From Octopus vulgaris (lineage: Eukaryota): a stretch of DNA of 64,000 bases. The position numbers were made by a program, and so were the translations under genes. The notes beneath the pieces were generated by a model. The model searched no databases. It worked only from the letters and a program-made list of their open reading frames with translations, and was not told where the DNA came from. Below, in pieces: positions 7,533 through 61,380 of the stretch. Position 1 is the stretch's first letter. Each line of letters starts with the position of its first letter. The stretch is taken from assembly GCA_951406725.2 (NCBI GenBank), contig OX597831.1:61442001-61506000 (forward strand), read 5' to 3'.

Positions 7533-7770
7533 GACATTAAAATGTTAACTTATTTATATAAAAATGATAATTTTAATAACATACATACATATAGCATATT
7601 ATTCTATGCATATAAAATAAGAATACAAAATTGATTGTATTCTTATTTTATATGCATAGAATAATATGCTATATGTATGTTATAATAATCATTTTAATAA
7701 ATAAATATGTTAATATTTTAATGTCCTAAATTTGATGAACCAACTTTGTGCTTCTCCATTTTCTTATTTG
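7533..7770. repeat. Asymmetric foldback element next to (TA)n
   Basis: Arms ~7533-7628 and 7635-7725 are imperfect reverse complements; the right arm has a ~45-bp extension. Confidence 0.8.
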
Positions 7771-7976
7771 CTATATAAATTAATGGTAAAATATCTCTTT
7801 ACCTTCACCCATTTAATACACTAGGTAAGTTAATTGCAATGCAATAAAAAACACTTGTGTATTAATAATTGGGTATTATACAAACAGTATATTGGATAGA
7901 TATTATCCCTTAGTGGGTTGGACCCACAACCTCTAACTTTCTTGGAGTTATATATATATATATAGTTATATATATT

Positions 7977-8557
7977 TGTTGAAATAGAAAGATGAATTTT
8001 CTTGTTACAGATTATTCAAAAGTTTAACCGATACCTGGGTAGCAAAAAATCACAGCAGAAAAAAGCACGGTTGGAGATAAGACCATTTGGTGTTGCAACC
8101 GTGCGTTGGTGCGGATAATTGAAGTTTAATATTATTAGTGAATGGAAGAAATGGAGTTGAACGAAGATTGTACAGAATTCCTTTTATTACATTCTACACA
8201 TGTTTCAAAGGCCACAAATTTCCAAACTCCGATTAAATAAGGGTACCATATTGTGGCTTTCTCTTCAGGAAAAAACAGGAATTCCGTTGACAGAACAAAA
8301 CAAAACAGAGGTGCAGCAACGCAATTCAAACGAGGATGCTCCTTAAGAGCCCATGGCTGAATTGCGTTGCTGCTCCTCTGTTTTGTTTTGTTCTGTCAAC
8401 GGAATTCCTGTTTTTTCCTGAAGAGAAAGCCACAATATGGTACCCTTATTTAATCAGAATTTGGAAATTTGTGGCCTTTGAAACATGTGTAGAATGTAAT
8501 AAAAGGAATTCTGTACAATCTTCGTTCAACTCCATTTCTTCCATTCACTAATAATAT
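7977..8557. mobile_element. Foldback element, probable Penelope-like pseudo-LTR inverted pair, between (TA)n tracts
   Basis: 200-bp arms at 8129-8328 and 8358-8557 with about 3 mismatches, a 29-bp spacer, a ~150-bp unpaired extension on the left, and (TA)n on both sides. Confidence 0.8.
8401..8511 (+). ncRNA. Putative minimal type-I hammerhead ribozyme (mirror copy on - strand at 8175-8285)
   Basis: CTGAAGA at 8418-8424; stem II gaaagccacaa/ttgtggccttt; GAAAC-atgt-GTA at 8480-8491; stem I ttc/gaa plus distal gaattcct/aggaattc. Confidence 0.65.
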
Positions 8558-8849
8558 AGTTATATATATATATATATATGCATACACAAATACACACCCA
8601 CCCACACAATGGGCTGCTTTCAGGTTCTGACTACCAAACTCACTCACAAAGCTTTAGTTGACTTGGAGCTACTGTAGAAAACACTTGCCCAAGGTGTCAC
8701 GGAGTGACACTGAACCCAAGACCATATGATTGGAAAGCAAGCTTTTTTGCCATAGAGTTATACCCATGCATAAAATGTAAGTCATTTAAGTTCCAACAAG
8801 ACTTGAACTCACATCACAGAATTCAGAATCTAAAGCATTCACGACTGAA

Positions 8850-9410
8850 GAGAAGACTTTACCCACAAGATCCTAACAGAGTGATACCATGGAAATTGTT
8901 ACATACACATTTTGACCTTCTGCCTTCATAAACACACATCAAGGCACCATCAATTAAGTCCAACAGAAACAGTATTTCTTCCCAGAAAGCAACTATTATC
9001 TCGTGTGTTTCAGGTGTGACAGTGTTACCTCCTGCTTTCAAGAGTTCTAAGTGTCTTCCATCTAAACCAGGAGTTCTCAACTGTTTTTTTTTTTATCTAT
9101 GGACCCTTTGGGACCCCCAAAGCCATAGAAACTTCTTTCAAAATTCCTATTTTATTTTTCACACATTAACTTATGTAGACAGAACTAAGCAAAATGTTAG
9201 AGAAAAAAATCTAGCTGTTTCCTGCAATACATACCAATACATACATCTAAAGCAAAATGTTTTTAGGGGTCCCTTAAAATACTATAGTGGATCCCCAATT
9301 TACTATTTTGTTGCATGCATCCCCGCCACACACACACACAAAAAAATCTTATATGGACCCCGGTTGAGAACTACTAATCTAGACTCCACTGATTTATTGC
9401 TAAGAGAATC
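8850..9410 (-). pseudogene. RTE-clade LINE ORF remnant (region upstream of the RT core), interrupted by a hAT MITE
   Basis: GLDG..LELLKAGG...IIVAFWEE...VYEGRRSKCVCNNFHGITLL matches the RTE KA.G.DG..E..K.GG...YKGKG...C.NYRGI.LL pattern. Confidence 0.8.
9068..9376. mobile_element. hAT (Charlie-like) MITE
   Basis: TIRs CAGGAGTTCTCAAC / GTTGAGAACTACTA; 8-bp TSD ATCTAAAC / ATCTAGAC (NTCTAGAN-type target); subterminal ggaccc motifs. Confidence 0.85.
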
Positions 9411-9444
9411 TCCTCATATTCTCATATGTTAATATGTTATTCAT

Positions 9445-9657
9445 GTGGCGATGAGCTGGCAGAAACGTTAGCACGCTAGACGAAATGCGTAGCCGTATTT
9501 CGTCTGCCGTTACGTTCTGAGTTCAAATTCCATCAAGGTCAACTTTGCTTTTCATCCTTTAGAGGTCGATAAATTAAGCACCAGTTACGCACTGGGGTCC
9601 CTTTGTCCGTCCTTGTTTGTCCCCTCTATGTTTAGCCCTTTGTGGGCAATAAAGAAA
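9445..9657 (+). mobile_element. SINE family B
   Basis: Unit ggcga(t)gagctggcagaaacgttagcacg...ttttcatcctttagaggtcgataaattaag...gtgggcaataaagaaa. Other copies at 15865-16080(-), 19970-20300(+), 23090-23300(-), 41185-41325(-), 49250-49430(-) and 55605-55830(-). Confidence 0.88.
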
Positions 9658-58421: not shown

Positions 58422-58985
58422 CTAGCAGCTAAGCCCGGTTTCACCTGGTCTGTTTGGATGATGTGGCTGCGATCGTTTTCGGTTAGGCATATGTGAATGA
58501 AAATTAAGTTCAGACTTCTACATGGTAGCTAGACCTGGTAGAAATAGCAGCCAAATCTCCCTCAAAACATCCTACTGTCTTAATCCGACAATTCTGCCTA
58601 TTATGTAGTTTGAATGAGAAACTGTAACTAAAGATTAAGGTTATTAACCCCACAAAGAGGTGAAAGAAGAGAGACAGTATAGCAAAAGTTTTGGCTGACT
58701 GTCATCCTGTACTCCCCTTGTTGCTAGCGAAATGGTATATGCTGGCTGTGTGAACAATAGGTTGTTTTAATGGCGGAACAAACGGGAATTCCATTAGAAA
58801 AGTTTTAATCGACTGAGAAGGTCGGTAAGTATGAGGGCTAGGAAAAAAATACAAACCGCATTCCAATCTATGCACCCGTCTCCATATGTGTGCCATTTTT
58901 CACGCAAATCCACCCAGCCGTTTGGCTGTGAATCTCGAAACAAGAAAGAATGCAAAGACCGCCCATGTCCAATTTATATTATAGA
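58422..58985 (-). mobile_element. Non-autonomous Helitron-like element
   Basis: Minus strand begins TCTATAATATAAA and ends CTAG, preceded by an imperfect GC hairpin (cccggtttcacctgg on +). Inserted between A and T with no TSD. Confidence 0.75.
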
Positions 58986-59462
58986 TTACTGGAGTGAATG
59001 TCATTCTAGATATCTGTACCTCAGCAAGCTATAATACTATGAGTGAAACAAATATTTGCAAATAGAAGAAGATAAAATGAGATAAATATGACCGAGTATT
59101 TTATAATTAGAGTTAAACATATGATATATTTAGAATTCTATTATTATTGTCAGGTCCATATGTAAAAATGATGCCTTTCTAAAGCTATTCACAAGTGTTT
59201 AAAGGGCTTCTTAGTGTTTATACATCCCAGTAGACATAATAAAATGAGGGACTTCAAAGGTTTTGATTTTAAAGCCTGGATCTACTCTATTGAATCAAAC
59301 ATGAAAAAATTATTCCAGCCTCAAACACATTGTCTTTTCCGCAGCCATAGTCTACACAGAATTAAATGTCCTTCCATTTAAACTAAAGCAGGGTGAAATT
59401 TGAGACATATTTTGCTGTTATTCTAGAAGGGCGAGTGACCACATTGAGTAAATATAATTGTC

Positions 59463-59688
59463 TGATTAAATAGATTTAATGAATTGAATTAAATAATTGA
59501 GTTAATGTTGAATCCAACAGTATGGAATAATCTAAATTGGAGTCTACAACACTGAAATTTTGATTAGTTTATTGTAATAATCTAATCAAAATTTCAATGT
59601 TGCAGACTTTCGTTTTGAATATTCCATACTATTAGATTCAACTCCAATTTAGGTTATTTAATTCAATTGATTAAATTCTGTTTAATCA
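59463..59688. repeat. Old AT-rich foldback (~105-bp arms)
   Basis: tgattaaa...tgaaattttgattag pairs with ctaatcaaaatttca...tttaatca; followed by a small hairpin at 59697-59735. Confidence 0.8.
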
Positions 59689-60619
59689 CTTAATCAATAT
59701 AATCTTCCTTATGTAAATCTACAGGAAGATTATATCAGAGTAAACAAAGTACGCATACACACATTGACACAGACAGACACATACACTGTGGCACACACCC
59801 ATTTATACAGATGCAATTAACTTTCACTTATTTCAGTCATAGTGGCCATGCTGGGGCACCACTATGAAGAAGTTTTAGTCATATGAATACACCCCAGTAC
59901 TTATAGATTTTTTTTTAACCTGGTAATTATTCTACCTGTCTCTTTTGCTGAACTGATAAGTTATGGGAACATAAACAGAGACAATGACTAGATTGGTCAA
60001 ACACTCACACACACACACAGATAGATATATGTATTTGCAACAGGCTTCTTTCAGTTTCCATCTACCAAATCCACTCACAAGGCTTTGGCCAGGCTATGGC
60101 TATAGTAGAAGACACTTGACCAAGGTTCCACACAGTGGGTCTGAACATGGAACCATATAGTTGGGAAGCAAATTTCTTACCCAAACAAGCCATATATACA
60201 TATATATATATACATATATATATATATATATATATATATATATCATATCGTTTAACGTCCGCTTTCCATGCTAGCATGATATATATATATATATATATAT
60301 ATATATATATATAGAGAGAGAGAGAGAGAAGATAGATAGATAGATAGATAGATAGATAGATAGATAGATAGAAAGATAGATAGATAGATAGATGATAGGG
60401 AGAATTCACAAAAAAAACAAAAGATGAAGACAGATGGTGTAGACAACCAACAGATGTATTAGTATAATGCTCGGGAAGTGAAAATGTCTGTAACGTTTTG
60501 AGCCTACACACTTCCAGTGGATAGCTCTCTCTCTCTCTCTCTCTTATATATATATATATATATATATATATATATATATATATATATATGCATATATATA
60601 TATATATATATATATATAT

Positions 60620-61170
60620 ATATTATATTATATTAAATTAGAGATTAAACCACTATTAGGCAAATCAAACAATGAAAAACTTAAGCCAATGCATAAAATT
60701 AATTAATTTATATTATTTTAAATATATATCAAAATTATTAAAAGTTTAATAAAAGATAATGAGTAAAACACTACGATCGTTTCATGGCTGTCCAATTCGA
60801 AATAATTCGAGTTATGGTTTCAGTCAATCTTCAGGTAATTGAAATATTTATCTTGGCTAAGATAAATATTTTAATTACCTGAAGATTGACTGTAGCCATA
60901 ACTCGAATTATTACGAATTGGACAGCCATGAAACGATCGTAGTGTTTTACTCATTATCTTTTATTAAACTTTTAATAATTTTGATATATATTTAAAATAA
61001 TATAAATTAATTAATTTTATGTATTGGCTTAAGTTTTTCATTGTTTGATTTGCCTAATAGTGGTTTTATCTCTAATTTAATATAATATAATATTTTACTA
61101 TAAAATTGGATTCAATCCTAAATCTGATTTTTCCCAGTAAGTTTGGATTTATTCCCTAATATTTTATTAT
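60620..61170. mobile_element. Foldback element: ~470-bp spacer-less palindrome plus ~80-bp extension, between (TA)n tracts
   Basis: Arms 60620-60856 and 60857-61093 are near-perfect reverse complements; the extension is shared with 37400-37490. Confidence 0.85.
60859..60960 (+). ncRNA. Putative minimal type-I hammerhead ribozyme (mirror copy on - strand ~60753-60854)
   Basis: CTGAAGA at 60879-60885; stem II tgactgt/acagcca; GAAAC-gatc-GTA at 60930-60941 with a palindromic loop; stem I tac/gtg plus distal aagataa/ttatctt. Confidence 0.62.
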
Positions 61171-61202
61171 ATATATATATATATATATATATATATATAT
61201 AT

Positions 61203-61380
61203 ATCAAAATAAGCAACAAGGATCATTTCATGCAACTCCATTTACATGAAAGGATTGTACTGCATTACCTCTGGATATCTTTGTTGCTTATTTTGATTTT
61301 AATCACCTTACTTTGAAATTGTATGGATAATACAGTACTAAATTCTGGTGCCTCAACTTATGTACCATATTAATCTGAAT
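61203..61380. repeat. Short asymmetric foldback between (TA)n tracts
   Basis: atcaaaataagcaacaaggat (61203-61223) pairs with atctttgttgcttattttgat (61277-61297); extension to ~61380. Confidence 0.75.

What the first reader, a model, noticed from the sequence alone, without database searches (positions are those of the whole stretch)
7533..61380. Recurrent class of asymmetric foldback elements targeted to (TA)n, several carrying hammerhead motifs
Seen: about 10 hairpin elements (starting near 7533, 8129, 10951, 11237, 13921, 17958, 37491, 59463, 60620 and 61203), mostly unrelated in sequence. Nine share one architecture: one arm abuts a TA-rich tract directly, while the other continues as a 45-150 bp unpaired extension, usually to another (TA)n. 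In four families the arms contain CTGANGA...GAAAC-nnnn-GTH, always reading outward from the centre. Established: Penelope-like elements (PLEs) carry minimal type-I hammerheads in their pseudo-LTRs, often form inverted termini with a 3' extension, and some target microsatellites. Inference: these are miniature, ORF-less, head-to-head double insertions, with two 3' ends primed on opposite strands of a TA break and the 5'-truncated cDNAs joined at the centre. At about 1 per 6-7 kb they could be a major under-annotated class of the genome. The components are known; the consistent geometry and density may not be described for this lineage.
Basis: partly seen in the sequence, partly recalled or inferred. 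Interest (0 to 1): 0.8.

Follow-up and report, generated by a model that had tools for sequence, protein, structure and literature searches.

The report
Tailed Penelope-type hairpins in TA repeats
Ten short DNA hairpins, nine of them ending at a TA microsatellite, are likely the stubs of Penelope-type retrotransposons that were copied inwards from both sides of a cut; the design is known, but their long tails, their oversized hammerhead-ribozyme motifs and their abundance here are unusual.

Summary
All 10 hairpins are real. The short arm ends within 4 nt of (TA)n in 9 of 10 (chance 1.1% per end). Tails are 78-223 nt, not 45-150; 8 of 10 run to a second TA tract. A strict hammerhead descriptor hits 5 places in 64 kb, all in arms and all reading outward (shuffles 0.045); a fourth family has a decayed copy. 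The helix II domain is 44-55 nt and Rfam finds none of them. Contigs of four public runs show that two families are high-copy, that other copies of one family end at the same short-arm site next to (TA)n, and that 11 other junctions have 11 different centres, six without any hairpin. This is the head-to-head, tailed, 5'-truncated insertion described for Penelope-like elements (PLEs); priming on both strands from two start sites was shown in vitro for a lizard PLE. No RT/GIY-YIG partner and no empty site was found, four hairpins show no hammerhead link, and genome-wide density is not established. Verdict: a new variant of a known kind.

The parts
7533..7948 (+). E1: short arm 7533-7628, long copy 7635-7948 (arm to 7725, 223-nt tail); TA tracts 7512-7528 and 7949-7975; no hammerhead found
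   Evidence: tail depth about 2,000-16,000 times the unique flank in four runs
7976..8557 (-). E2: 153-nt tail 7976-8128, arms 8129-8328 and 8358-8557 (197/200), 29-nt centre that is largely family sequence
8418..8491 (+). E2 type-I hammerhead motif, 55 nt between boxes, about 10-bp helix II; mirror copy at 8268-8195 on the minus strand
7964..7975 (+). 12-bp direct repeat with a non-TA marker, repeated at 8558-8569, flanking tail plus both arms of E2: candidate target-site duplication (a third copy at 7946-7957 overlaps E1's end)
10950..11217 (+). E3: arms about 10950-10997 and 11027-11078, centre 29 nt, presumed 139-nt tail; TA tracts on both sides
11234..11562 (+). E4: arms 11234-11319 and 11325-11408, presumed 154-nt tail; shares TA tract 11218-11233 with E3; weakly related to E1
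13920..14241 (+). E5: arms 13920-14031 and 14082-14191 (90/121); decayed hammerhead 14092-14163 (one mismatch per box, 53-nt spacer, 5-bp stem I; 55-nt spacer in the other arm); tail cut by a TTAA-flanked insertion at 14246-14466
17877..18226 (-). E6: presumed 81-nt tail 17877-17957, arms 17958-18091 and 18100-18226 (102/135); intact hammerhead boxes at 18105-18178 (+ strand), 55-nt spacer
37410..37641 (-). E7: 80-nt tail, arms of about 75 nt; same family as E9, truncated downstream of the hammerhead, opposite orientation
59463..59688 (.). E8: hairpin of about 110-nt arms (81%); no TA tract, no hammerhead, membership of the class not shown
60624..61167 (+). E9: arms 60624-60854 and 60859-61089 (234/244 with flank), 78-nt tail; hammerhead motifs at 60879-60941 (+) and 60834-60772 (-), 44-nt spacer, palindromic loop 3
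61205..61379 (+). E10: outer arms about 20 nt, presumed 82-nt tail; shares TA tract 61168-61204 with E9; right arm weakly resembles the 3' half of E9's hammerhead (67% over 61 nt)

Best explanation
The hairpins are high-copy repeats sitting in (TA)n tracts and are likely 5'-truncated 3' ends of Penelope-like retrotransposons, each made of two copies joined head to head. Inferred mechanism: a PLE RT/GIY-YIG complex nicks both strands of a (TA)n tract, which reads the same on both strands, with a stagger of about 12 nt (E2's flanking repeat). One 3'-OH primes cDNA at the outer start site of the RNA (arm plus tail), the other at an inner site 78-223 nt upstream (short arm). Both cDNAs stop after 20-380 nt and are joined at their 5'-truncated ends. 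A hairpin results only when the long cDNA passes the inner start site; otherwise the product is tail plus inverted arm without a hairpin. Shown: hairpins, TA adjacency, outward hammerhead motifs, high copy depth, fixed short end, variable centres. Inferred: the PLE enzyme, the nicking, the two primings, the joining, and any ribozyme activity.
For: Short end at (TA)n in 9 of 10, chance 1.1% per end. Strict hammerhead descriptor: 5 hits in the window, 5 of 5 in arms (E2 x2, E9 x2, E6), all outward; mean 0.045 in 200 shuffles, maximum 1; relaxed scan adds E5 (1 of 100 shuffles). Stem I and helix II pairs differ between unrelated families while the boxes stay. E7 and E9: one family, short ends within about 10 nt of each other, arms of about 75 and 230 nt; tails of E1 and E2 at roughly 2,000-16,000 times the depth of the unique flank in 4 of 4 runs; 7 contigs of run X2 run into (TA)n exactly at E2's short-arm position 8129; 11 of the 15 listed joints (6 more not shown) cross the centre, all at different breakpoints, and in 6 of 11 the long copy stops inside its tail, so the short copy holds sequence that the long copy lacks; a contig of X2 extends E2's short arm 26 nt further inwards with the sequence of the window's centre. 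Literature: head-to-head inverted pLTRs with a one-sided tail and 8-10-bp TSDs (PMC3846280); inverted 5'-truncated copies, tails and (TA)n bias, including octopus Hydra and Naiad families (PMC8557442); hammerheads on opposite strands 100-700 bp apart in Schistosoma (PMC4209133); cleavage and extension of both strands from two RT start sites that bound the tail (PMC11167929).
Against: No RT or GIY-YIG sequence was linked: 0 of 18 window ORFs tested (of 53 listed, none inside an element) hit Pfam, and no match to the 3' ends of Hydra-1_Obim or three octopus Naiads was seen by eye. No empty site was seen. E1, E3, E4 and E8 have no long-spacer hammerhead and no relative with one. 6 of 10 centres are 8 nt or less, more symmetric than two independent truncations predict, and both arms of E7 share the same subfamily variants: both fit one template copied by fold-back. 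The joints have only 20-44 letters on their shorter side, come from contigs laid at 85% likeness, and could be later deletions of hairpin centres. Helix II domains do not fold better than shuffles (z -1.5 to +0.1), and the unconstrained folds do not show the hammerhead three-way junction. The descriptor's 70-nt spacer limit was chosen after seeing the motifs. Summed contig depth is not a copy number.
Confidence: 0.65

Rival explanations
1. Same PLE origin, but the second arm arises by fold-back self-priming: one cDNA (or an antisense template) snaps back at a small palindrome and copies itself as far as the inner site, and is then joined to the other end of the TA break.
For: 6 of 10 centres are 8 nt or less; E7's arms share subfamily variants against E9; E2's centre holds a near-palindrome; self-priming was proposed for the head-to-head junctions of rotifer PLEs (PMC3846280).
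Against: In 6 of 11 centre-crossing joints the short copy holds sequence absent from the long copy, which fold-back cannot make without a later deletion; E2's own junction shows no snap-back homology; in vitro a PLE protein extends both strands (PMC11167929).
Confidence: 0.2
2. Non-autonomous DNA transposons (MITE or foldback type) that target TA, the arms being long terminal inverted repeats.
For: Palindromic, ORF-less, short, beside TA; E8 has no tail or TA tract and could be of this kind; DNA transposons with TA targets are common (general knowledge).
Against: One arm is not terminal: a high-copy 78-223-nt tail lies outside it and inside E2's flanking repeat; centres vary and arms are often missing on one side; hammerhead motifs in four families.
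Confidence: 0.07
3. Local inverted duplications of unique or TA-adjacent DNA made by template switching at TA cruciforms, or foldback artefacts of the assembly.
For: All lie in an AT-rich, microsatellite-rich window; only E7 and E9 have a clear second copy within it.
Against: Arms and tails of E1 and E2 are high-copy in four runs; a contig of run X1 carries the unique flank, the TA tract and 70 nt of E1's arm; arms have diverged by up to 25%.
Confidence: 0.05

Closest known systems
EN+ Penelope-like elements with inverted pLTR and tail (D. virilis Penelope, Adineta Pen2a/Pen2, Anolis Poseidon PAc)
   Same: Head-to-head 5'-truncated copies, one-sided 3' tail, short TSD, hammerhead near the 3' end, AT-rich targets, two RT start sites (PMC3846280, PMC8557442, PMC11167929).
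   Different: Tails are 78-223 nt rather than 30-40; whole insertions are 175-580 nt with no ORF; no autonomous partner identified.
Hydra clade PLEs (incl. Hydra-1_Obim; Penelope-13_HM carries an inverted truncated copy)
   Same: (TA)n insertion and a type-I hammerhead about 100-200 nt from the 3' end (PMC8557442 section 11 and supplement).
   Different: Listed Hydra hammerheads have a short helix II (3-7 bp, loop of 3-10 nt) and a 3-4-bp stem III; here 44-55 nt lie between the boxes and stem III is 2 bp with a 4-nt loop. No sequence match to Hydra-1_Obim seen by eye.
Naiad PLEs (Naiad_Obim, Naiad_Ovul)
   Same: (TA)n bias, inverted truncated copies, tails; no canonical hammerhead, like E1, E3, E4, E8.
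   Different: E2, E5, E6, E9 carry both boxes in type-I order; no match seen by eye to the 3' ends of three octopus Naiads.
Metazoan non-LTR retrozymes
   Same: ORF-less, a few hundred nt, type-I hammerhead, proposed PLE derivatives (bioRxiv 10.64898/2026.07.22.740005).
   Different: Retrozymes are head-to-tail tandems with a hammerhead per unit; these are head-to-head pairs with the motifs on opposite strands.
L1 twin-priming 5' inversions (recalled, not from a call)
   Same: Two target 3' ends prime two cDNAs that are joined in inverted orientation; resembles the 6 non-overlapping joints.
   Different: L1's second priming site is variable and the segments do not overlap; here the inner site is fixed and overlaps of up to 230 nt make hairpins.

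Membership tests
Penelope-like elements (EN+) | RT plus GIY-YIG ORF in the element or in a linked full-length copy | not testable with these tools
   No genome held; no ORF of 110 aa or more inside an element; 0 of 18 other ORFs hit Pfam; two collection scans found nothing.
Penelope-like elements (EN+) | Variable 5' truncation | tested here: met
   E7 against E9; 11 centre-crossing joints with 11 different breakpoints; depth falls towards E2's centre in 4 of 4 runs.
Penelope-like elements (EN+) | Inverted truncated copy joined head to head | tested here: met
   Hammerhead motifs read outward in 6 of 6 arms where found.
Penelope-like elements (EN+) | One-sided 3' tail with a fixed short end | tested here: met
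   7 contigs run into (TA)n at 8129; E7/E9 short ends within about 10 nt. Tails are longer than the published 30-40 bp.
Penelope-like elements (EN+) | Type-I hammerhead near the 3' end | tested here: inconclusive
   Boxes intact in E2, E6, E9, decayed in E5, absent by truncation in E7, partial and weak in E10, not found in E1, E3, E4, E8; spacer atypically long; activity untested; no Rfam hit.
Penelope-like elements (EN+) | Short target-site duplication around the whole unit | tested here: inconclusive
   12-bp repeat flanks E2, with a third copy nearby; other flanks are plain (TA)n; no empty site.
Hydra clade | (TA)n targeting | tested here: met
   9 of 10 short ends.
Hydra clade | Canonical compact hammerhead as listed for 27 Hydra families | tested here: not met
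   Table.
Hydra clade | Diagnostic RT/EN motifs (DKT, CxCX5C) | not testable with these tools
   No coding sequence linked.
Naiad clade | Absence of a canonical hammerhead; N-terminal EN | tested here: inconclusive
   Does not fit E2, E5, E6, E9; open for E1, E3, E4, E8; protein not testable.
MITE / TIR transposon | Inverted repeats at both termini, directly inside the TSD, with a fixed interior | tested here: not met
   Tail outside one arm; variable centres. Not tested for E8.
Non-LTR retrozyme | Head-to-tail tandem units, each with a hammerhead | tested here: not met
   No tandem array over any of the 10 elements; motifs on opposite strands.

The most novel reading that the evidence does not exclude
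These are dedicated miniature non-autonomous PLE families: RNAs of 250-400 nt that begin just upstream of a hammerhead with a 44-55-nt helix II domain (missed by Rfam and by published PLE descriptors), insert by double priming into (TA)n at thousands of copies per family, and make up several per cent of the genome. Each copy is a self-contained long hairpin, so in an octopus they would be a main source of the unusually high dsRNA and A-to-I hyper-editing load. In favour: centres lie 5-90 nt upstream of box 1 in E2, E5, E6, E9, and depth drops just upstream of box 1 in 4 of 4 runs (about 2- to 18-fold by bin); divergence between subfamilies could also cause that drop.
Probability: 0.2. Interest if true: 0.7.

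Novelty: new variant of a known kind. Interest (0 to 1): 0.45.

Why it matters
How PLEs finish an insertion is open: the in vitro study stops at first-strand synthesis (PMC11167929). Short complete insertions with both ends, a candidate TSD and thousands of junctions per family allow a direct count of overlapping against non-overlapping products, which separates double priming from fold-back. The long-spacer hammerheads would be missed by Rfam and by the 7-17-nt spacer of the core-motif search in PMC8557442, so such families can sit unclassified or be filed as MITEs. If the host is an octopus (my reading of the abundant SINEs, recalled and not tested), the hairpins are candidates for the high share of dsRNA-forming loci and hyper-editing reported for Octopus bimaculoides without repeat annotation (PMC5625713).

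Tried and rejected
Whole genome not held, so no genome-wide einverted, clustering or empty-site search. Rfam scan at E up to 1: 102 matches, none a hammerhead family. Two exact-motif scans of metagenome contigs (E7/E9 tail, E2 tail): 0 loci each. Pfam on 18 of 53 long open frames: no family. The look-up of sequencing runs for E2: no RNA holder listed; no evidence either way on expression. Read laying: no listed piece spans the stretch and the flank contigs of X2, X5, X7 stop in or before the first TA tract, so no empty site could be seen. Earlier findings of the scan: three look-ups, nothing. Octopus Hydra and Naiad 3' ends from the supplement of PMC8557442 were compared by eye only, not aligned; no match seen; Repbase and Dfam libraries were not available. 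A minimal-hammerhead scan gave one hit, in E3's tail (2% of shuffles, 10 elements tested): not counted. The relaxed long-spacer scan gave 8 hits outside the elements in about 60 kb, taken as chance. Other inverted pairs in the window (2166-2864, 6605-7145, 20460-21199, 45831-46687, 55111-55809, 56935-57905) are oppositely oriented copies of dispersed SINE-like repeats and were set aside. Eight literature searches listed no paper whose title or abstract describes short tailed PLE hairpins with long-spacer hammerheads in cephalopods; subscription papers and Repbase Reports are outside the library.

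
Full report
Observation. The window is AT-rich, repeat-rich animal-type DNA with 131 TA runs of 8 bp or more in 64 tracts. 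The abundant SINE-like repeats look to me like those of octopus; that is recalled and was not tested. No genome is held. I number the ten hairpins E1-E10 in window order. All ten are present and each beats 200 of 200 dinucleotide shuffles of itself. Aligned arm identity runs from 98.5% (E2) and 96% (E9) to about 75% (E5, E6); centres are 6, 29, 29, 5, 50, 8, 2, 2, 4 and 53 nt. Together they cover 3,443 bp, 5.4% of the window, but six lie within 11 kb and three pairs share a TA tract (E1+E2, E3+E4, E9+E10).

Geometry. The short arm ends within 4 nt of a TA run in 9 of 10; only 1.1% of non-TA positions have a run within 5 nt in a given direction. E8 is the exception on both sides. The other arm continues into a tail of 78-223 nt that reaches a second TA tract in 8 of 10. 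For E3, E4, E6 and E10 I placed that end at the next tract, so it is not independent evidence. For E7/E9 the tail is shared between two loci 23 kb apart, and for E1 and E2 it is high-copy up to the tract. E5's tail is interrupted by a TTAA-flanked insertion. E2 is bounded by a 12-bp direct repeat that contains a non-TA marker and encloses the tail as well as both arms; a third copy overlaps E1's end, so it is a candidate TSD only.

Hammerheads. Rfam finds none. A descriptor of box 1, up to 70 nt, GAAAC, 3-6 nt, GTH and at least 2 bp of stem I gives 5 hits on both strands of the window, all in arms of E2, E6 and E9, all reading away from the centre; 200 block-wise shuffles give 0.045 on average. 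The spacer limit was set after I had seen the motifs. Allowing one mismatch per box adds E5 (53-nt spacer, 5-bp stem I; 1 of 100 shuffles) but also 8 hits outside the elements. Spacers are 55, 55, 53-55 and 44 nt in four unrelated families, each with different stem I and helix II pairs; loop 3 is palindromic in E6 and E9, not in E2. Against function: the helix II domains are no more stable than shuffles and free folding does not give the three-way junction; PLE hammerheads are, however, reported to be weak, dimeric or protein-assisted (PMC4209133, PMC11167929). E7 is truncated downstream of the motif, E10 weakly resembles its 3' half, and E1, E3, E4, E8 show none.

Other copies. E2's sequence is held, at 24-58% of sampled words, by 20 of 24 listed runs from 10 studies and 4 coded organisms. 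I laid contigs of 4 of these runs on 7380-8640, which holds E1 and E2 only; the other eight elements were not tested this way. Against unique-flank depths of 42.8, 46.8, 4.9 and 9.6, the tails reach about 2,000-16,000-fold, E1's arms 40-960-fold, E2's hammerhead bins 970-9,500-fold and E2's centre 110-600-fold. The tool warns that summed contig depth is no copy number, so this shows only that both are abundant repeat families. In run X2, 7 contigs aligned from 8129 are preceded by (TA)n, so other copies end at the same short-arm site. Of 15 listed joints (6 more not shown), 11 cross the centre (8 in E2, 3 in E1), at depths of 20-190 (one to a few loci in X1 and X2; about 20 times the flank for the one joint in X7) and with 11 different breakpoint pairs; 3 are deletions within E1's tail and 1 is a strand switch between arms. 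In 6 of the 11 the long copy keeps only 61-203 nt, all within its tail, while the short copy keeps 29-147 nt of arm, so no hairpin forms. These joints rest on 20-30 letters on the shorter side and could also be later deletions. No empty site was seen. A contig of X1 covers flank, TA tract and 70 nt of E1's arm with no substitution (2 gaps), which, with the divergence between arms, argues against an assembly artefact.

Mechanism. Sense strands point outward, so both 3' ends lie at the target and both truncated 5' ends meet in the centre, which is what target priming from both sides of one break would give. I infer that a PLE protein nicks both strands of (TA)n, whose two strands read alike, and starts one cDNA at the outer and one at the inner start site; the two are then joined. 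This rests on the anatomy, on the non-overlapping joints, and on the demonstration that purified Anolis PAc cleaves and extends both strands and starts at two sites that bound the tail (PMC11167929). The main rival is fold-back self-priming (proposed in PMC3846280): 6 of 10 centres are nearly symmetric and E7's two arms carry the same subfamily variants. Symmetric centres could also come from two cDNAs annealing at a template palindrome, or from both reaching a common 5' end. I put PLE origin of the class at about 0.85 and the double-priming version at 0.65. Whether the templates were full-length PLEs or short non-autonomous RNAs is unresolved; centres lie 5-90 nt upstream of box 1 in the four hammerhead-bearing elements and depth falls there, but contigs of X5 and X7 also show a diverged continuation at that point.

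Comparison with what is known. Inverted 5'-truncated copies, a 30-40-bp tail on one end, microsatellite bias and (TA)n-targeted Hydra and Naiad families in Octopus are in PMC8557442 (passages, section 11, supplement search and parts 2, 24, 52, 53 of 59). Head-to-head junctions with palindromes and 8-10-bp TSDs are in PMC3846280 (passages). Hammerheads on opposite strands 100-700 bp apart and mostly ORF-less single motifs are in PMC4209133 (parts 1-2 of 4). PMC11167929 was read in parts 1-2 of 4, the retrozyme preprint in part 1 of 5 (its supplements are closed), and PMC5625713, PMC8969392, PMC8967140 as passages; the last lists Penelope among abundant cephalopod repeats and has no occurrence of palindrome, hairpin or inverted. 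So the elements work like known PLE insertions. Membership is likely but unproven, because no RT/EN partner was linked; they do not meet the tests for MITEs (E8 untested) or retrozymes, and their hammerheads differ from those listed for the Hydra clade. A long helix II has a precedent in spike-moss PLE-X1.

Novelty and verdict. New here, as far as eight searches show (Repbase and Dfam not seen): tails two to six times the published length, a recurrent 44-55-nt hammerhead spacer across unrelated families, and evidence for a continuum from non-overlapping inversions to long hairpins. The architecture itself is known. New variant of a known kind; interest 0.45.

Noticed in passing
window 37663-38905: 330-bp tandem, 3.8 copies, 99.7% identical, starting at the TA tract that E7 ends in, followed by about 270 bp of unique sequence; no hammerhead box 1 in the unit, no Pfam hit in the overlapping frame. 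Could be the tandem terminus of another TA-targeted retroelement.
   Followed up: partly
window 14246-14466 and about 54810-55030: Short element with CCCTTT/AAAGGG termini between TTAA sites (piggyBac-like, label recalled) inserted into E5's tail; a second, partly decayed copy elsewhere in the window.
   Followed up: partly
window 17437-17610 and 40500-41030: 35-bp inverted pair 105 nt apart inside a LINE-like repeat that recurs at 40500-41030; looks like a LINE 5' inversion, a separate class.
   Followed up: no
window 11121-11147: Minimal-hammerhead-like motif (one mismatch in box 1, no helix III, 4-bp stem I) in E3's presumed tail; 2% of shuffles, 10 elements tested.
   Followed up: partly
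window 7891-7948 and 11513-11562: The 3' ends of E1 and E4 share a short motif just before the TA tract (78% over 23 nt), supporting distant kinship.
   Followed up: partly
window 31888-32045: 65-bp unit repeated 2.4 times inside a TA tract; possibly very short termini of another TA-targeted element.
   Followed up: no
window 12342-12975: AT-rich 630-bp segment between two TA-containing tracts, with a box-1 motif at 12885 (minus strand) and a weak match to E6's arm (73% over 41 nt); may be a non-hairpin relative.
   Followed up: no
window 2166-2864, 6605-7145, 20460-21199, 45831-46687, 55111-55809, 56935-57905: Six close pairs of oppositely oriented SINE-like repeats that could also form dsRNA.
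   Followed up: no
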